64,000 bases of DNA, taken from assembly GCA_947460345.1 (NCBI GenBank), contig CANHGM010000001.1, forward strand, positions 132,744 through 196,743, written 5' to 3'. The stretch's first letter is position 1. Each line of letters opens with the position of its first letter. A program made the position numbers and the translations under genes. Positions 26,346-32,221 of the stretch are shown in pieces. The notes under the pieces are model-generated. The model was given only the letters and a program-made list of their open reading frames with translations. It was not told the DNA's origin and did not search any database. Source of the stretch: Bacteroidota bacterium. GTDB taxonomy: Bacteria > Bacteroidota > Bacteroidia > UKL13-3.

Positions 26346-26729
26346 TTATTGTTTGTCGAATCTGAGTTCGTATATAATATTTCCTTTAACCAATATATAT
26401 ACTTTGTATCTGCCCGTATTTGTTTCTAGAGTACCATTTGCAAATTTACTATTGCCTGAAGTGCCTTTATGGTCAATGGTAAAACTTGATAGGATGTTTT
26501 TTGAGAAAAAATCTTTAAGTATCATTTCAGCTTGCGATTTGCTATAGGCATCATCATTATTAGGCAATCCTAATTCAATGGTAGTGTTAAAACTTGAAGA
26601 TAAAGCTGATACATTTGACGTTTTAATATTTTTAGCAAAAGTATCAAACACATCTGTTTGAGCTGAAGTGGTCGATATTAAAATCAACAACATACTTACA
26701 GACATCAAAATCATTTTTATTTTTTTCAT
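26346..26729 (-). CDS. DUF4783-family exported protein
   Basis: Signal peptide from ATG 26729, YSKSQAEMILKDFF and H.G.S...FA.G.L.T..G.YKV motifs. This family is usually found next to nadC in Bacteroidota. Confidence 0.85.
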   Translation of the reverse strand: MKKIKMILMSVSMLLILISTTSAQTDVFDTFAKNIKTSNVSALSSSFNTTIELGLPNNDDAYSKSQAEMILKDFFSKNILSSFTIDHKGTSGNSKFANGTLETNTGRYKVYILVKGNIIYELRFDKQ

Positions 26730-26860
26730 TGTACGCAGGTGTTCGCTAAAATTATGCCAAAGCACTGATTCTGTTTTTCAATCGAATAATCAAATAAAAT
26801 ATCTGATATCATTATTCTATAACAAATACTATCTCAAACCAAAGTATTTTTGCAAGTGAA

Positions 26861-28375
26861 ATGAATAGAAAAGTTTTATTACTCATATTAGACGGTTGGG
26901 GCAAAGGCAAAGACTACAAAGGCAATGCTGTAACCAATGCTGCTAAACATTTTGTTGAATCGTTAAACCAACATTGGCCTCATGCCATGCTTCAAACATC
27001 AGGCGAGGCTGTGGGCTTACCTGAGGGGCAAATGGGCAATAGTGAAGTGGGACACTTAAACATTGGTGCAGGCCGTGTGGTTTACCAACAACTGGTGCTG
27101 ATAAACAAAGCTTTTGCTGATGGCAGTATCAACCAAAACAAAACACTGATTCAAGCATTTGAGTATGCAAAAAAAGAAAACAAAAGCGTGCACTTTATTG
27201 GACTTGTGAGCAACGGAGGTGTGCATTCACATATCAATCATTTAAAAGGGCTTTGCACTACGGCCAATAATTTTGGTCTTGTAAAAGTATATATACACGG
27301 GTTTTTAGATGGAAGAGATACCGACCCTAAATCAGGATTGGGTTTTATACACGATCTACAATCTCATATAACAGGCACATGTGTTAAGATAGCTTCGCTT
27401 ATAGGTAGGTATTATGCCATGGACAGAGACAAACGTTGGGAAAGAATAAAACTGGCTTACGATGCCATGGTGATGGGCATAGGCACACATACCACCCAAG
27501 TTGAAGAGGCTATACATAACTCGTATGCCGAAGGTGTTACCGATGAGTTTGTAAAACCTATAGTGGTGACAGAAGGTGATACACCTGTTGCTGTGATTGA
27601 AGAAGGTGATGTGGTGATTAATTTTAATTTTAGAACCGATAGAGGTAGAGAAATTTCAGAGGTGCTTACCCAAAAAGATTTTCATGAGCAAAACATGCAT
27701 AAGTTAGACGTGAAGTATATCACCATGACTACTTATGACGAAACCTACTTAAATGTTGATACACTATTTGCCAACGACGACTTAGCGATGACCCTGGGTG
27801 AGGTATTAGAAAAACATGGTAAAACACAAGCCCGTATTGCCGAAACTGAAAAATACCCGCATGTGACCTTCTTTTTTAGCGGAGGTAGAGAAACCGAGTT
27901 TAACAACGAAAGCAGGTATTTATGCCCATCGCCTAAAGTAGCCACCTACGATTTGCAACCTGAAATGAGTGCTGAGGAAGTGAAAAAAGCTACCATTAAA
28001 GCCATGGTCGAAGATAACAAAGATTTTATTGTTACCAATTTTGCTAACCCTGATATGGTTGGTCATACAGGTGTGTTGCCTGCAGTAATCACAGCTATTA
28101 ACACAGTTGATAATTGTGTAAAAGAACTTGTGGATGTTGCTCAACAAAACGGCTATACTTTATTGATAACCGCTGACCATGGCAATGCCGAATATATGAT
28201 AAATGACGATGGCACACCCAACACCGCCCATACTACTAACGATGTTCCGCTTAGGCTCATAGACCCTGAGATTAAATCGTTGCACCATGGCAAACTGGCC
28301 GACCTCGCTCCTACCATTTTAGCTTTGCTTCAAGTGCCACAACCACCTGAAATGACCGGTGTAAGTCTAATTTAA
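26861..28375 (+). CDS. gpmI: 2,3-bisphosphoglycerate-independent phosphoglycerate mutase
   Basis: LILDGWG, GQMGNSEVGH, GRYYAMDRD, AETEKYPHVTFFF, NFANPDMVGHTG and TADHGNAE motifs. Confidence 0.97.
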   Translation: MNRKVLLLILDGWGKGKDYKGNAVTNAAKHFVESLNQHWPHAMLQTSGEAVGLPEGQMGNSEVGHLNIGAGRVVYQQLVLINKAFADGSINQNKTLIQAFEYAKKENKSVHFIGLVSNGGVHSHINHLKGLCTTANNFGLVKVYIHGFLDGRDTDPKSGLGFIHDLQSHITGTCVKIASLIGRYYAMDRDKRWERIKLAYDAMVMGIGTHTTQVEEAIHNSYAEGVTDEFVKPIVVTEGDTPVAVIEEGDVVINFNFRTDRGREISEVLTQKDFHEQNMHKLDVKYITMTTYDETYLNVDTLFANDDLAMTLGEVLEKHGKTQARIAETEKYPHVTFFFSGGRETEFNNESRYLCPSPKVATYDLQPEMSAEEVKKATIKAMVEDNKDFIVTNFANPDMVGHTGVLPAVITAINTVDNCVKELVDVAQQNGYTLLITADHGNAEYMINDDGTPNTAHTTNDVPLRLIDPEIKSLHHGKLADLAPTILALLQVPQPPEMTGVSLI

Positions 28376-28387
28376 CCTAACCAACTA

Positions 28388-29494
28388 TTGAAATATTATC
28401 TCATAGCAGGTGAAGCTTCTGGCGATTTGCATGGTGCTAACCTTATCAAAGAGCTAAAACTACTTGATGCTGATATAGACATTAGGTGTTGGGGTGGCGA
28501 TTTGATGCAAGAGCAAGGAGCTACCTTAGTTAAACACTACAAAGAATTGGCTTTTATGGGTTTTAAAGAAGTGGTGGCCAATATTAACACCATATTTAAA
28601 AACATTGCTTTTTGCAAAGAAGATATAGCAGCCTATAAACCAGATGTGGTGGTGTTTATTGACTATCCGGGGTTTAATCTCAGAATAGCCGAATATGTGC
28701 ACCAAATAGGTATTAAAACTGTTTACTATATATCGCCACAAGTGTGGGCTTGGAAAGAAAACAGGGTGAAGAAGATCAAACAATGCATAGACCTCATGAT
28801 ATGCATACTACCATTTGAAAAAGATTTCTATAAAAAATGGAATTATGACGCCGCTTATGTGGGTCATCCGTTGCTCGATGCCATTCAGAACATTGATACC
28901 GATATACATTTTAGAGCCAAACACCATATCGACAGCAAGCCCATAATAGCGTTGTTGCCCGGAAGCAGAAAACAAGAAATAGCCAAGATGCTACCTTTGA
29001 TGTTAGAGCTTAGTAAAAAACACCAAGAGTATAATTTTGTGGTGGCTGCTGCCCCAGGTCAAACATTGGCTTTTTACCAAACATATATACAAGCCTATCA
29101 AAACTGTTTTATCGTAAAAGACCAAACATATACCTTGCTGAAAGAGTCTTACGCGGCGTTGGTCACCTCAGGAACTGCTACCCTAGAAACCGCTTTATTT
29201 AATGTGCCGCAAGTGGTCTGTTATAAAGGGAGTACTATCAGTTATCAAATAGGGAAAAGATTGGTGAAAATTAAATATATATCACTAGTCAATTTAATAT
29301 TAGACAAACCTGCGGTGGTAGAACTGATACAAGGAGATTTTAATATGCAGAAACTCGATCAAGAGTTTACCCAAATAACTACGGGGGCTAAGCGAAGTCA
29401 TATACTTCATGACTATATTCAGTTGAAAGATATTTTAGGAAACTCAGGTGCTTCGGCTAAAGCGGCGGGGATTATATATAAACAACTGGTATAA
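28388..29494 (+). CDS. lpxB: Lipid-A-disaccharide synthase
   Basis: IAGEASGDLHG, IDYPGFN, YYISPQVWAW, LLPGSR..EI and TSGTATLE motifs. Confidence 0.96.
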   Translation: MKYYLIAGEASGDLHGANLIKELKLLDADIDIRCWGGDLMQEQGATLVKHYKELAFMGFKEVVANINTIFKNIAFCKEDIAAYKPDVVVFIDYPGFNLRIAEYVHQIGIKTVYYISPQVWAWKENRVKKIKQCIDLMICILPFEKDFYKKWNYDAAYVGHPLLDAIQNIDTDIHFRAKHHIDSKPIIALLPGSRKQEIAKMLPLMLELSKKHQEYNFVVAAAPGQTLAFYQTYIQAYQNCFIVKDQTYTLLKESYAALVTSGTATLETALFNVPQVVCYKGSTISYQIGKRLVKIKYISLVNLILDKPAVVELIQGDFNMQKLDQEFTQITTGAKRSHILHDYIQLKDILGNSGASAKAAGIIYKQLV

Positions 29495-29577
29495 GACTTT
29501 TATTTACTCCGCCTTTACAAACTTTATAGTTTGTATATTTTTTTCATCATCAAAAATATTCAATATACAATTACCGT

Positions 29578-29648
29578 TTGTCAATATAGATACATCAATC
29601 AAATGGTTTGGTATATGTGGAAAAAACATTGTCCTTGTATGCTATAAG
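29578..29648 (-). repeat. Degenerate direct repeat of the tRNA-Ala 3' region (putative att-site remnant)
   Basis: TTGTCAATATA-N15-TGGTTTGGTATA-TGTGGAAAA at 29578 aligns with TTGTCAATATA-N14-TGGGTTGGTAAATTGTGGAGAA at 30924. CTTGTATGCTAT (29634) resembles CTTGCATGCCAT of the tRNA anticodon arm. Confidence 0.5.
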
Positions 29649-29724
29649 TGTTATATTAGTACGAAAATTGAAAACCAAAATATAATTCCTTAGAAATATT
29701 ACTATTGAATATAGTTTGATTATA

Positions 29725-30000
29725 TTATTTGTTTGTTTCAAAGAAACAAACATTCTGAATCAATTCTTTTTTTAAACCATATCGGTATTCCATACTGAAA
29801 AACTCACGGACATATCTTTTTATTGAGTATTGGAGGTGTTTTTTAAGTTCGGTGAGGGTAAAATTCGTTTCAGAACTATTCTGTTGAATTACGACATAAT
29901 ACAATCTATTTTGTAGTAGTTTCTTCACATCTTCAATCATTCGTTTCTGATGAGGTTTTAATGGATATTGTTTCAATACATAATCTATAATTTTTATCAA
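29725..30000 (-). CDS. Hypothetical protein, alanine-free (start uncertain: TTG 30000 or ATG 29940)
   Basis: 91-aa ORF inside the island with no recognisable motif. It may be a gene fragment. Confidence 0.35.
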   Translation of the reverse strand: MIKIIDYVLKQYPLKPHQKRMIEDVKKLLQNRLYYVVIQQNSSETNFTLTELKKHLQYSIKRYVREFFSMEYRYGLKKELIQNVCFFETNK

Positions 30001-30005
30001 TAAAC

Positions 30006-30037
30006 AATCAAACCAAAGGTAAATCTTTGGTCTGATT
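30006..30037 (-). terminator. Putative hairpin terminator after the island's small-ORF operon
   Basis: aatcaaaccaaag-gtaaat-ctttggtctgatt inverted repeat (one mismatch on the + strand), about 75 nt downstream of the stop at 30110. Confidence 0.45.
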
Positions 30038-30109
30038 ATTTGTTGTTGGGTCTTTTTACAGAAGACAAGAACTGAAAACCCGTAATGGTTTTGACTTTCC
30101 CAATGACCG

Positions 30110-30262
30110 TTATTTTTTCAATCTTTCTAATTTAACCTTATACTCATCAATTCCAATTTTCAATCTCAATACTTCTTTCTTTTTAGGGTCTTTCTCTTCT
30201 TGTAATTTTATTCTATTTTTCGTTATTCTATCCTCAATTTGTCTAATCTTTTCAAAATTCAT
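30110..30262 (-). CDS. Small basic coiled-coil-like protein, 50 aa, alanine-free (not in the supplied ORF track)
   Basis: My translation: MNFEKIRQIEDRITKNRIKLQEEKDPKKKEVLRLKIGIDEYKVKLERLKK*. It starts 10 nt after the stop of the 72-aa ORF. Confidence 0.65.
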   Translation of the reverse strand: MNFEKIRQIEDRITKNRIKLQEEKDPKKKEVLRLKIGIDEYKVKLERLKK

Positions 30263-30272
30263 TTCATAAAAA

Positions 30273-30491
30273 TTATATTTTATCTAATCTCTCAATTAGT
30301 GTCTCTTCCATCAACTGGAAGAGTATTTCCTTTTTGTAGAGGTGTTGGTTTTTGTAAATAACATAGTCATTATTTGAAACTCGTTTTATATCTCTTTTGA
30401 GTTTTGACCTATGGGTTTTTACAATAGACTGAATGGTGTTGAAGTCATATAAACCATCACTTCCGTTTATTCTGTATTCTACTATTTTCAT
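30273..30491 (-). CDS. Small hypothetical protein, alanine-free, possible HTH/excisionase-like DNA-binding protein
   Basis: 72 aa with an ATG start overlapping the upstream ORF. LYDFNTIQSIVKTHRSKLKRDIK resembles a helix-turn-helix followed by a wing (weak inference). Confidence 0.6.
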   Translation of the reverse strand: MKIVEYRINGSDGLYDFNTIQSIVKTHRSKLKRDIKRVSNNDYVIYKNQHLYKKEILFQLMEETLIERLDKI

Positions 30492-30753
30492 ATAGTTTTT
30501 TTATTTTTTTATACTCATTGATGAGGTCATCAATTTTGTCTTCCTCATTCTCTTCAATGGGTTCTTCTGATGTTTGGTCTTCCTCATCTTGAATATTTTT
30601 TTTGAGTTTTCTTAATCTGTTTTCATCAAACTCAAAATCATCTTCTGTTTGTGGTTCAACCTCATCTTGGGTTTCATCTTCAATTTTTGGATTAGGATAT
30701 TTCTCTAAAATGAATTTGATAAAATCGGTCTGAATGTGTTTTCCTTTTCTCAT
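30457..30753 (-). CDS. Acidic low-complexity hypothetical protein, alanine-free
   Basis: 98 aa with an ATG start, a D/E-rich centre and basic ends. First gene of the island operon. Confidence 0.6.
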   Translation of the reverse strand: MRKGKHIQTDFIKFILEKYPNPKIEDETQDEVEPQTEDDFEFDENRLRKLKKNIQDEEDQTSEEPIEENEEDKIDDLINEYKKIKKLYENSRIQNKRK

Positions 30754-30901
30754 AAGAGTTGTAATTATTTTTTAGTCCAACCTTGGTTGGATTACTCTTA
30801 TATGTATTGAGATAGAAAAGTTGAGTTTGAGAAGAAAGGATTTTTTATAGAAAAAGGAAACGATAAAATGTTACACACATTTGTTTTACACTATAAAATC
30901 A

Positions 30902-30949
30902 AAAAAAGAGTATAAAATATTGATTGTCAATATATTTATACTCTTTTTT
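30902..30949 (-). terminator. Long hairpin downstream of tRNA-Ala
   Basis: aaaaaagagtataaa-atattga-ttg-tcaatat-a-tttatactctttttt. Confidence 0.7.
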
Positions 30950-30963
30950 GGGTTGGTAAATTG

Positions 30964-31037
30964 TGGAGAATATCGGAGTCGAACCGATGACCTCTTGCAT
31001 GCCATGCAAGCACTCTAGCCAGCTGAGCTAATCCCCC
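30964..31037 (-). tRNA. tRNA-Ala(GGC)
   Basis: Reverse complement GGGGGATTAGCTCAGCTGGCTAGAGTGCTTGCATGGCATGCAAGAGGTCATCGGTTCGACTCCGATATTCTCCA. It has a G3:U70 pair, anticodon GGC, a GTTCGA T-loop and no encoded CCA. A TAAATTTG -7 element lies at 31054-31047. Confidence 0.97.
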
Positions 31038-31192: not shown

Positions 31193-32221
31193 TTATGCAT
31201 CTACCTCTACTTTTACCTTTACGCCGCCTGAGAATGCCTTCTCTTTTATTTTCATTTCTATTTCTTCGGCAAGTTCGGGGTTGTCTTCTAACATCTTCTT
31301 CACTGAATCTCTGCCTTGCCCAATTTTTGTGTCGTTATAGCTAAACCATGAACCACTTTTTTTGATGATTTCATAATCTACACCTAAGTCTACTATTTCG
31401 CCATTTTTAGAGATACCCTCGCCATACATAATATCAAACTCTACTACTCTGAATGGAGGTGCTACTTTGTTTTTGGCAATTTTAACCTTAGTTCTATTTC
31501 CTACTATTTCAGTTCCGTCTTTTATTTGTCCAATTCTTCTGATGTCTAACCTTACTGAAGCATAAAACTTTAAAGCATTACCACCCGTAGTGGTTTCAGG
31601 GCTGCCAAACATTACTCCAATTTTTTCTCTCAATTGGTTGATGAATATACAACAACAGTTGGTTTTGTTGATGGTACCTGTTAGTTTTCTAAGAGCTTGG
31701 CTCATCAAACGGGCTTGTAACCCCATTTTGCTGTCGCCCATTTCTCCTTCAATCTCGGCACGAGGAACCAATGCCGCTACAGAGTCGATCACGATGATAT
31801 CTATAGCTCCTGATCTGATTAAGTTATCTGCTATTTCTAAGGCTTGCTCTCCGTCGTCAGGTTGTGAGATGAGTAAGTTAGCAGTGTCTATGCCTAAACG
31901 CTCAGCATAAGCTTTGTCGAAAGCATGCTCTGCGTCTATAAATGCTGCCATACCGCCTTGTTTTTGAGCTTCGGCAATGGCGTGCATAGACAATGTTGTT
32001 TTTCCTGAAGACTCAGGACCATATATTTCTATTACTCTACCTTTGGGCAAACCACCAATGCCTAATGCTATATCTAAGCCTAATGAACCCGTAGGCAATG
32101 CTTCTACATTCTCTACTTTGTCATCGCTTAGTTTCATGATAATGCCTTTGCCAAACTGCTTTTCAAGCCTCTCTAATGTTGCTTGTAAAGATTTACTTTT
32201 TTCGTTATCTGCTGATGCCAT
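31193..32221 (-). CDS. recA: Recombinase RecA
   Basis: GPESSGKTT Walker [26 protein letters not shown] and [10 protein letters not shown] motifs. Confidence 0.99.

What the first reader, a model, noticed from the sequence alone, without database searches (positions are those of the whole stretch)
29643..30996. A 1.35-kb island at tRNA-Ala(GGC) with zero GpC dinucleotides
SEEN: reading every line, including across block boundaries, I find no 'GC' between the one at 29641-29642 and the one at 30997-30998 inside the tRNA anticodon arm, a run of 1,354 bp. From 29513 onward there is only one GC. CpG is still present (about 14 by hand, e.g. 29783, 29850, 30081, 30726), as are GG and CC. G and C are each very roughly 14-15% of bases, so some 20-30 GpC would be expected (rough estimate). 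The flanking lpxB and recA have GC on almost every line. The absence covers all codon positions and the intergenic DNA, and even the hairpins are built without GC steps. KNOWN: tRNA 3' ends are standard integration sites; mobile DNA avoids restriction sites; GpC methyltransferases exist (M.CviPI) and 5mC deaminates to T. INFERENCE: this is a remnant of a mobile-element lineage under near-absolute pressure against one dinucleotide. Possible causes are a GpC-recognising nuclease or modification system (the element's own or a host's) or chronic GpC methylation/deamination. I know of no described element class with this property.
Basis: partly seen in the sequence, partly recalled or inferred. Interest (0 to 1): 0.92.

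Follow-up and report, generated by a model that had tools for sequence, protein, structure and literature searches.

The report
GpC-free mobile element remnant
A 1.35-kb leftover of a mobile element beside a tRNA gene has no G-followed-by-C step at all, and related 7-14-kb elements in other Bacteroidota, with their restriction enzymes, also lack that step and so lack alanine, which points to an unknown force aimed at this dinucleotide.

Summary
There is no GpC between 29641 and 30997 (about 26.5 expected, 0 seen). The next longest GpC-free run in the 3.0-Mb genome is 401 bp.

The stretch is the decaying end of an integrative element at the 3' end of tRNA-Ala(GGC). It holds three small intact ORFs and the 5' part of a rolling-circle Rep-like pseudogene.

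The GpC-free state belongs to the lineage, not just to this copy. Six of 13 related loci have 0-1 GpC over the element DNA held. One of them is a complete 6.9-kb element in a comM-like gene: tyrosine integrase, HhaI-like type II R-M genes, and 1 GpC against 144 expected. In four such elements, 25 ORFs (6,237 residues) contain no alanine. A type I HsdR carried by one element belongs to a clade in which 61 of 120 listed homologues (63-100% identical) have no alanine.

Non-coding DNA is GpC-free too. GpT/ApC are not in excess, and lost alanines became mostly Gly, Val, Ser or Cys. This indicates selection on the DNA rather than deamination. The agent is unknown. My best guess is a GpC-directed, restriction-like activity met at transfer. 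Six literature searches found no description of this.

The parts
29643..30996 (.). GpC-free run of 1,354 bp: the element remnant plus the last 34 nt of the tRNA gene
   Evidence: 0 GpC against 26.5 expected; genome-wide outlier.
30963..31037 (-). tRNA-Ala(GGC). Its 3' end (30963) abuts the island, and its 3' 34 nt have no GpC
   Evidence: ARAGORN; 6 of 33 tRNAs of this genome have a GpC-free 3' tail of 33 nt or more; contigs carrying other organisms' tRNA-Ala genes diverge from this sequence exactly at 30963.
30902..30949 (.). Inverted repeat (hairpin, terminator-like) between the tRNA 3' end and the first island gene, built without GpC
   Evidence: inverted self-match, 90% over 48 nt. The sequence was read. 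Its function is inferred.
30457..30753 (-). ORF 1, 98 aa, with a very acidic centre and basic ends. It is the first gene of the conserved module. No alanine
   Evidence: Homologues lie in all compared loci. No Pfam or PHROG family.
30273..30491 (-). ORF 2, 72 aa, the best conserved module protein. No alanine
   Evidence: Homologues are 60-99% identical, and none of the six printed sequences contains alanine.
30110..30262 (-). ORF 3, 50 aa, Lys/Glu-rich. No alanine
29665..30000 (-). 5' part of a rolling-circle Rep-like (HUH) gene, now a pseudogene. It has an in-frame stop at 29725-29727, a decayed HUH motif, and homology that ends near 29665
   Evidence: tblastn covers residues 5-105 of the 175-aa L010 protein at 67% identity; translation; profile A2 hit, E 6e-16.
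29495..29642 (.). Spacer between the lpxB stop and the remnant. It has two GpC (29511, 29641) and is taken to be host DNA
   Evidence: no homology to the related elements here.
28388..29494 (+). Flanking host gene lpxB, normal GpC, 8.9% alanine
   Evidence: Pfam LpxB, E 4e-95.
31193..32221 (-). Flanking host gene recA, normal GpC, 8.7% alanine
   Evidence: Pfam RecA, E 1e-140.

Best explanation
Shown: the GpC-free stretch is the truncated, decaying att-proximal arm of an integrative element inserted at the 3' end of tRNA-Ala(GGC). It keeps the family's conserved module of a 98-aa acidic protein, a 72-aa protein and a 50-aa protein. After these comes the first ~105 codons of a rolling-circle Rep-like HUH gene, which now carries a stop codon and a ruined HUH motif. 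The integrase and cargo are gone.

Shown: intact relatives are ~7-kb elements that sit at tRNA or tmRNA 3' ends or inside a comM-like gene. They carry restriction-modification cargo (type I, type IIG or HhaI-like type II), and their whole DNA, non-coding parts included, has 0-1 GpC. As a result their proteins have no alanine.

Inferred: this state is kept by strong purifying selection against every single GpC in the DNA, acting over long evolutionary time and across a pool of exchangeable mobile genes. The most likely agent is a GpC-directed DNA-targeting activity met when the DNA enters or establishes in a new Bacteroidota cell. That could be a nuclease, or a modification-dependent system, that sees GpC itself. 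An element with no GpC is invisible to it.

The window copy is a dead remnant that has not yet had time to regain GpC. I estimate under about 2% neutral divergence, from the roughly 380 single-base routes to GpC in 1,354 bp.
For: Remnant status. Homology to the L010 Rep-like gene runs from 29967 to 29665, through an in-frame stop, and ends about 20 bp from the GpC-free boundary. The module order downstream of the tRNA/tmRNA 3' end (W, L007, L010, L011, L012) or of a comM-like junction (L013, L055) is the same in all seven.

Lineage property. Of 13 loci with the module, 6 have 0-1 GpC over all element DNA held. These are the window; L007 (1,278 bp); L011 (6,987 bp); L012 (1,624 bp); L013 (6.3 kb, 1 GpC); and L055 (7,032 bp, 1 GpC against 144.5 expected). 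L008 is GpC-free for 576 bp, 2 loci are partly depleted and 4 are normal. Five of these zones pooled, without L055 (17.5 kb), give 345 GpC expected and 0 seen.

Complete element. L055 is flanked by a 10-bp direct repeat inside a split comM-like gene. It encodes a tyrosine integrase, a small recombinase, a C5 methyltransferase most like M.HhaI over its whole length (E 7e-67) with a neighbouring 367-aa ORF of no family, a Rep-like gene and the module.

Protein consequence. 25 ORFs with 6,237 residues have 0 Ala. Codon junctions G|C are 104 expected and 2 seen. Codon counts are AGC 1, TGC 0, GGC 0, CGC 0.

Breadth and age. 61 of 120 listed HsdR homologues have no Ala, and 12 more have 1-2. Ala-free members are only 65-89% identical to each other. 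Seventeen outgroup homologues at roughly 40% identity have 49-77 Ala, and 29 such loci have GpC O/E of 0.87-1.47. In the Rep-like family, 17 of 32 representatives have no Ala. A different backbone in G372, with serine recombinases, carries the same HsdR clade and has 16 GpC against 487 expected over 14 kb with sharp borders.

DNA level. Att-proximal non-coding DNA (1,232 bp) has 19.4 GpC expected and 0 seen. Other intergenic DNA (1,843 bp) has 32.5 expected and 0 seen.

Selection, not mutation. GT/AC O/E is 0.95. Conserved Ala columns became G 21%, V 16.5%, S 14%, C 12% and T 3.7%.

Restriction pressure is visible independently. CATG O/E is 0.19-0.27 in the elements against 0.84 in the host, and ACGT is 0.45-0.52 against 0.79.
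Against: No agent was identified. I know of no bacterial enzyme that recognises GpC alone (recalled, not searched in REBASE). The host chromosome is rich in GpC (O/E 1.30), so a host nuclease would need a protecting modification or a way to act on incoming DNA only.

Four relatives with the same module (L009, L014, L015, L016), a related comM-type integrase element (G090) and the G801 cargo all have normal GpC. The constraint is therefore not tied to the element's own machinery and must depend on lineage or host range, which I could not define.

Because GC is its own reverse complement, an RNA-level cause cannot be excluded by strand arguments. The upstream non-coding regions might be transcribed by read-through.

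The window copy is dead yet still GpC-free. This fits recent decay, but it would also fit a constraint that does not need mobility.
Confidence: 0.55

Rival explanations
1. Diffuse restriction avoidance. No single GpC-specific agent exists. The elements meet so many R-M systems whose targets contain GC (GCGC, GGCC, AGCT, TGCA, GCNGC, type I half-sites) that removing the dinucleotide altogether is the cheapest general escape.
For: The elements show classical palindrome avoidance (CATG 0.19-0.27, GATC 0.24-0.48, ACGT 0.45-0.52). The host genome avoids GCGC ninefold (O/E 0.11), and a sister-genus element carries an HhaI-like methyltransferase. A lake Chitinophagaceae methylome in PMC6329791 lists type I motifs with AGC/GCT half-sites (passages seen).
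Against: The strongest avoidance of any non-GC palindrome in the same DNA is about fivefold. GpC is 0 of 345 expected, in all 16 flanking contexts. CpG, which is cheaper to remove because Arg has AGR codons and which is central to as many palindromes, is only at O/E 0.60-0.70. Removing GpC costs a whole amino acid.
Confidence: 0.15
2. RNA-level cause. Transcripts of these elements must resist an endoribonuclease that cuts at GC (in the manner of MazF and ACA-less mRNAs, or MqsR at GCU; both recalled), for example during toxin- or phage-induced shut-off. The DNA is GpC-free only because GC is self-complementary.
For: GC is its own reverse complement, so a sense-strand constraint removes it from both strands. 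The elements are compact and mostly coding. In G801 the backbone genes are GpC-poor while the cargo is not, as gene-by-gene selection would allow.
Against: Non-coding DNA upstream of the first gene and next to the att site, plus the GpC-free 3' tails of the tRNA/tmRNA genes, are also free (19.4 expected, 0 seen). No such RNase is known to me, and none was found in the elements.
Confidence: 0.1
3. Self-immunity to the cargo. The elements swap R-M modules often, and many of those modules cut GC-containing targets. A GpC-free backbone is never cut by whatever module it carries while unmethylated copies are made, for example by rolling-circle replication.
For: Every pristine full-length element carries R-M genes of different types. 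One is HhaI-like, with target GCGC inferred from similarity. The Rep-like gene suggests a replicative, possibly single-stranded, stage (a lead only).
Against: Type I and IIG enzymes have varied targets that need not contain GC. The cargo genes themselves are GpC-free over long divergence. The G372 island has no Rep-like gene yet is GpC-poor.
Confidence: 0.08
4. Mutational cause. Chronic GpC methylation followed by deamination, or a GC-context DNA deaminase, has converted GpC to GpT/ApC.
For: GpC methyltransferases and GC-context deaminases exist (recalled). The host genome encodes C5 methyltransferases of unknown specificity.
Against: GT/AC are not in excess (O/E 0.95). Ala was replaced by Gly, Val, Ser and Cys, with Thr at only 3.7%. 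Long ORFs of 981-1,192 aa stay intact. Depletion to exactly zero is not what a mutation-selection balance gives. The host itself is GpC-rich.
Confidence: 0.04
5. Chance in AT-rich DNA, or an assembly artefact.
For: The island has 28% G+C.
Against: P(0) is 3e-12. The minimum in 20,000 shuffles is 11. AT-matched windows elsewhere have 15 or more. The same property occurs in independent assemblies. The island itself is held by lake metagenome runs of 14 studies, and the four I laid (from four studies) cover it at near-identity.
Confidence: 0.001

Closest known systems
Restriction-site (palindrome) avoidance in phages and plasmids (e.g. bioRxiv 10.1101/2022.12.15.520556, seen only as a search listing with the start of its abstract)
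   Same: Mobile DNA loses short words that host nucleases recognise. These elements also deplete CATG, GATC, ACGT and GTAC.
   Different: Here the word is a dinucleotide. It is removed completely, in every flanking context and in non-coding DNA, at the price of one amino acid. No R-M enzyme with that specificity is known to me (recalled).
CpG suppression in vertebrate viruses that evade ZAP (PMC7498042 and PMC12582503, abstract starts seen in the listing)
   Same: Dinucleotide-level avoidance imposed by a host sensor of non-self nucleic acid.
   Different: That case is eukaryotic, acts on RNA, and is partial. This one is bacterial, apparently at DNA level, and absolute.
ACA-less mRNAs resistant to MazF, and GCU-poor mRNAs with MqsR (recalled, not checked)
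   Same: Total absence of a short word from genes that must escape a sequence-specific nuclease.
   Different: Those involve single genes and RNA. Here whole elements of up to 7 kb are affected, with a related 14-kb island nearly so, and non-coding DNA is included.
Chlorovirus frequent cutters and GpC methyltransferase (R.CviJI at RGCY, M.CviPI at GpC; recalled)
   Same: They show that enzymes reading 2-4 bp around GC exist in freshwater systems.
   Different: They are viral enzymes of algae. No homologue was sought or found here. The deamination signature expected from 5mC is absent.
Genomic islands integrated at tRNA/tmRNA 3' ends or in comM that carry R-M systems ('mobile R-M units'; recalled)
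   Same: Integrase, att repeats, target sites and R-M cargo.
   Different: The conserved three-gene module has no Pfam or PHROG family, the Rep-like gene has no Pfam family or match to a solved structure, and the whole element is GpC-free.
HUH rolling-circle initiators (Pfam REP_ORF2-G2P, Phage_GPA, YagK_YfjJ)
   Same: Invariant E..H.H.F and YH.KQ motifs. ESM Atlas model similarity has TM 0.54-0.62.
   Different: No Pfam hit and no hit to solved structures by profile. In the window the gene is broken.

Membership tests
Integrative element (genomic island) at a tRNA gene | Insertion directly at the 3' end of a tRNA or tmRNA gene | tested here: met
   The window island starts at the tRNA-Ala 3' end. 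L007 and L010 lie at tRNA-Arg(CCT); L011 and L012 lie at tmRNA.
Integrative element (genomic island) at a tRNA gene | Integrase or recombinase gene | tested here: not met
   None in the window copy. It is present in relatives: a tyrosine integrase in L055 and a serine resolvase in L011. The window therefore holds a remnant, not an element.
Integrative element (genomic island) at a tRNA gene | Direct repeats (att) at both ends | tested here: not met
   The distal end is lost in the window, where homology stops at about 29665. The feature is met in L055: a 10-bp repeat in the split comM-like gene.
Restriction-site avoidance | Depletion of short palindromes relative to a Markov expectation and relative to the host | tested here: met
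   CATG 0.19-0.27 against host 0.84; ACGT 0.45-0.52 against 0.79.
Restriction-site avoidance | The avoided word equals the target of a known R-M enzyme | not testable with these tools
   No REBASE access. From recall, no enzyme recognises GpC alone.
Methylation/deamination decay (as for CpG) | Excess of the deamination products GpT/ApC | tested here: not met
   O/E 0.95. In the window, GT is 80 against 79.9 expected and AC is 50 against 56.
Methylation/deamination decay (as for CpG) | Alanine codons replaced mainly by Val and Thr | tested here: not met
   G 21%, V 16.5%, S 14%, C 12%, T 3.7% in 32 conserved Ala columns.
HUH rolling-circle Rep | HUH motif and catalytic Tyr motif | tested here: inconclusive
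   H113, H115, Y165, H166, K168 and Q169 are invariant in 12 relatives. The motif is decayed in the window copy. No biochemical test was possible.
HUH rolling-circle Rep | Match to a curated family model or a solved structure | tested here: not met
   No Pfam hit. There were 0 PDB hits with profile A2 at E up to 10. Only ESM Atlas leads exist, at TM 0.54-0.62.
Phage or phage satellite | Relatives in phage or viral collections, or structural/packaging genes | tested here: not met
   No match in viral contigs or in the phage collection. No such genes appear in L011, L013 or L055.

The most novel reading that the evidence does not exclude
Bacteroidota of lakes and seas harbour a still unknown immune or modification activity that reads the bare dinucleotide GpC in incoming DNA. 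In response, a whole exchangeable pool of mobile genes has become GpC-free, and therefore alanine-free, so as to be invisible to it. That pool includes type I, IIG and II restriction-modification systems, tyrosine and serine recombinases, a rolling-circle Rep and small regulators.
Probability: 0.4. Interest if true: 0.95.

Novelty: categorically new. Interest (0 to 1): 0.9.

Why it matters
I know of no other case where natural selection has removed one dinucleotide completely from kilobases of functional DNA. Large enzymes were rebuilt without alanine: a 981-aa HsdR, a 1,192-aa type IIG enzyme, a C5 methyltransferase and several integrases.

Three consequences follow.

1. There is probably an unrecognised nucleic-acid-targeting activity with two-base specificity in a major bacterial phylum. 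That would interest defence-system research and enzymology.

2. The elements are a natural experiment in 19-amino-acid protein design.

3. There is now a simple sequence signature, GpC-free runs or alanine-free proteins, for finding a hidden mobilome. The same signature lets one date how long a copy has sat in a genome without transfer.

Tried and rejected
Family assignment of the window ORFs. Pfam and PHROGs gave nothing above threshold. The ESM Atlas gave nothing usable for the 72-aa protein.

DNA relatives of the island. None were found in 40 related genomes beyond chance-level short hits.

Relatives in other collections. Viral contigs gave none for the 72-aa ORF, the Rep fragment, profile A1, the HsdR or HsdR profile A3. 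The Rep-like protein had no match in phages or plasmids. No HsdR relative of 60% identity or more was found on plasmids.

Rep as the cause of GpC avoidance. Rejected. L015 has the Rep-like gene with normal GpC, and the G372 island is GpC-poor without it.

Codon-level explanations (alanine or tRNA-Ala avoidance). Rejected, because GpC is also absent at codon junctions, in NGC codons and in non-coding DNA.

Arg CGC codon preference as the source of the residual CGC/GCG sites in G372. Rejected. None is an in-frame CGC codon and 9 of 16 are non-coding.

Synteny. An empty tRNA-Ala/recA site was sought in 25 relatives, but the two genes are not adjacent there.

Host methyltransferases. G000 has two C5 methyltransferases whose target-recognition parts match no solved enzyme, so their specificity stays unknown.

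Population variants. Twelve SNPs in the island across four lake runs create no GpC, but only about 0.8 would be expected, so this is uninformative.

Expression. No RNA holder was listed for the island, so nothing can be said.

Literature. Six searches found no paper on GpC-free elements or alanine-free proteins.
Full report
THE OBSERVATION

A recount finds GpC at 29511, at 29641 and then not until 30997. The 1,354 bp in between have A .29, C .143, G .137 and T .43, so 26.5 GpC are expected and none is seen. The Poisson P(0) is 3e-12. In 20,000 shuffles the mean was 26.5 and the minimum 11. CpG (17), GG (41) and CC (26) are present.

The next longest GpC-free run is 329 bp in the window and 401 bp in the whole 3.0-Mb genome. 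Of 4,508 AT-matched genomic windows, the median holds 38 GpC, and none outside this locus holds fewer than 15. GpC is the most over-represented dinucleotide of this genome (O/E 1.30).

WHAT LIES THERE

tRNA-Ala(GGC) sits at 30963-31037 on the minus strand, with LpxB and RecA genes on either side. Downstream of the tRNA 3' end, all on the minus strand, lie:

- a GpC-free hairpin (30902-30949);
- a 98-aa very acidic ORF;
- a 72-aa ORF;
- a 50-aa ORF;
- a 91-codon ORF.

None has a Pfam or PHROG family.

The fourth ORF is the 5' part of a gene that is 175-196 aa long in relatives. tblastn with the L010 protein aligns residues 5-105 to window 29967-29665 at 67% identity, reading through an in-frame stop at 29725-29727. 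The family's invariant H.H motif reads GFQFSY here. Homology stops about 20 bp from the edge of the GpC-free run. The stretch is therefore a truncated, decaying end of a larger element.

THE RELATIVES

The 72-aa protein has homologues of 60-99% identity, and none of the six printed sequences contains alanine. Searches of genome contigs, metagenome contigs and the host's order gave 12 further loci with the module.

The three small genes are conserved in all of them. In seven loci the module lies directly downstream of a host junction:

- tRNA-Ala in the window;
- tRNA-Arg(CCT) in L007 and L010;
- tmRNA in L011 and L012;
- a split comM-like Mg-chelatase-family gene in L013 and L055.

The GpC state of the 13 loci is as follows.

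- Six have 0-1 GpC over all the element DNA held:
  - the window;
  - L007 (1,278 bp, including the whole tRNA-Arg gene);
  - L011 (6,987 bp, to the contig end);
  - L012 (1,624 bp);
  - L013 (6.3 kb with one GpC);
  - L055 (7,032 bp, 1 seen against 144.5 expected).
- L008 is free for 576 bp and then normal.
- L010 and L017 are partly depleted.
- L009, L014, L015 and L016 are normal.

L011 and L012 are 88% identical where they overlap, so they are not independent.

WHAT THE INTACT ELEMENTS ARE

L055 (G005, a sister genus of the host) is complete. A 10-bp direct repeat flanks about 6.9 kb inside the comM-like gene. The element encodes:

- a 674-aa tyrosine integrase;
- a 196-aa integrase-family protein;
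- a 367-aa ORF of no family;
- a 348-aa C5 methyltransferase whose best match over its full length is M.HhaI (E 7e-67, against 7e-39 for M.HaeIII);
- the Rep-like gene;
- the module.

L011 carries a 1,192-aa type IIG enzyme (DUF7149, DUF7814, Eco57I methylase and TaqI_C domains) and a serine resolvase. L013 carries type I HsdR, HsdS and HsdM.

The Rep-like protein has invariant E..H.H.F and YH.KQ motifs. It has no Pfam hit and no hit among solved structures. Its ESM Atlas model resembles REP_ORF2-G2P, Phage_GPA and YagK/YfjJ rolling-circle initiators (TM 0.54-0.62, a lead only).

The family is thus a small integrative element with a likely rolling-circle replicon and interchangeable R-M cargo. 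That the acidic first protein might be a DNA mimic is only my guess from its composition.

CONSEQUENCES FOR THE PROTEINS

In 25 ORFs of the window, L011, L013 and L055 (6,237 residues) there is no alanine. LpxB and RecA next door have 8.9% and 8.7%. Codon junctions of the form ..G|C.. are 104 expected and 2 seen. Codon counts are AGC 1, TGC 0, GGC 0 and CGC 0. All the exceptions are the two known GpC sites.

BREADTH AND AGE

Of the 120 best homologues of the L013 HsdR (63-100% identity, query cluster included), 61 have no alanine and 12 more have one or two. Alanine-free members are only 65-89% identical to one another.

In a tree rooted with 17 homologues at roughly 40% identity (49-77 Ala each), the 119 close sequences form one clade. 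Ala = 0 is spread throughout that clade, and lineages with 1-46 Ala are nested in it many times.

Of 30 HsdR loci fetched from 401 genomes of the class, only the 68%-identical one (G372) is GpC-poor. The other 29 have O/E of 0.87-1.47. One control locus, L035, comes from the unpublished genome G116.

The G372 island is 14 kb with 16 GpC against 487 expected, at 37% G+C like its flanks, and its borders are sharp. It has a different backbone: one large and two small serine recombinases, and no module or Rep.

In G801 (another class, with GC-richer DNA) the backbone segments are GpC-poor (25 seen against 245 expected) while the type I cargo is normal. G736 is largely ameliorated. G090 has a related comM-type integrase with R-M cargo and normal GpC.

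In the Rep-like family, 17 of 32 representatives at 50% clustering have no alanine, and none exceeds 4.5% (one 2,491-aa hit was set aside as spurious).

The GpC-free state is therefore old, shared by a pool of exchangeable mobile genes, and lost gradually in some lineages.

SELECTION OR MUTATION, DNA OR RNA

The deamination products GpT/ApC are not in excess (O/E 0.95). In 32 columns where the outgroup has alanine, the alanine-free proteins have G 21%, V 16.5%, S 14%, C 12% and T 3.7%. These are conservative choices, not the Val/Thr pair that C-to-T change on either strand would give. Long ORFs are intact. This is selection.

Non-coding DNA is equally free. The att-proximal upstream regions of six elements (1,232 bp) have 19.4 GpC expected and 0 seen. 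Other intergenic DNA (1,843 bp) has 32.5 expected and 0 seen. The tRNA and tmRNA 3' tails next to the elements are also free. In this genome 6 of 33 tRNAs have such a tail of 33 nt or more. This favours a DNA-level constraint, although read-through transcription cannot be excluded.

The elements also show ordinary restriction avoidance that is stronger than in the host. CATG O/E is 0.19-0.27 against 0.84, and ACGT is 0.45-0.52 against 0.79. But nothing else approaches the more than 100-fold loss of GpC. CpG, which would be cheaper to remove, stays at O/E 0.60-0.70. I therefore prefer a single GpC-directed agent to the sum of many ordinary R-M systems.

What that agent is, I could not find. Known precedents for 2-4-bp recognition around GC are recalled only from chloroviruses.

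THE WINDOW COPY

With about 186 G and 194 C in the run, there are roughly 380 single-base routes to a new GpC. Zero GpC therefore implies less than about 2% neutral divergence since selection stopped. That figure is my estimate, not a tool result.

The island is held by lake metagenome runs of 14 studies. In the four I laid, from four studies, it is present at near-identity, and its 12 SNPs create no GpC, which is uninformative.

PRIOR WORK

Six full-text searches found nothing on GpC-free elements or alanine-free proteins.

VERDICT

The window holds a remnant of a previously undescribed, GpC-free and alanine-free mobile gene pool of Bacteroidota. The cause is unknown and is worth an experiment.

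Noticed in passing
whole genome G000 (window included): The host genome avoids GCGC about ninefold (147 seen against 1,390 expected, O/E 0.11) and GATC 2.4-fold (O/E 0.41). A sister-genus element carries an HhaI-like methyltransferase. Such elements may be what drives the GCGC avoidance.
   Followed up: partly
G000:C43:1-14000 (L086): This is a second R-M island in the same genome. It has a large serine recombinase, an N4/N6 methyltransferase, a small resolvase, a 265-aa unknown ORF and type I HsdM/S/R. Its GpC O/E is 0.39-0.86 for all genes but the recombinase (1.17), against a genome median of 1.31, lowest in the resolvase and the unknown ORF. It may be an ameliorated member of the same gene pool.
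   Followed up: partly
L050 2533-16561 (G372:C6, about 961-975 kb): Of the 16 residual GpC in this 14-kb island, 15 lie in a CGC or GCG context, against 24% in the flanks. Nine are non-coding, and eight of those sit in the 100%-identical inverted repeats that flank the R-M genes. None is an Arg CGC codon. They may be functional sites, or the agent may tolerate a CpG-flanked GpC. This is unexplained.
   Followed up: partly
L062 (G801:C11:872000-891999): This is a mosaic island in a GC-richer genome of another class. The integrase-like and small-ORF backbone has 25 GpC against 245 expected at 46% G+C, while the type I R-M cargo between the two backbone segments has normal GpC.
   Followed up: partly
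L069 (G033:C9, about 26729-27141): The same 34-nt 3' segment of tRNA-Ala(GGC), together with its terminator hairpin, is repeated about 300 bp away and brackets a small insert with normal GpC. This tRNA end is thus a recurrent integration site.
   Followed up: no
G000:C16:37000-38800: This stretch is very AT-rich (about 20% G+C) and has four successive GpC gaps of 311-394 bp. Its O/E is only mildly low at 0.6-0.7. I did not examine it.
   Followed up: no
L008 1170-3234: Directly after the GpC-free three-gene module, the DNA turns to normal GpC. It encodes, on the other strand, a 405-aa ORF with integrase-like C-terminal motifs (by eye, not tested with Pfam) and a small HTH-like ORF. This looks like a junction of two elements.
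   Followed up: no
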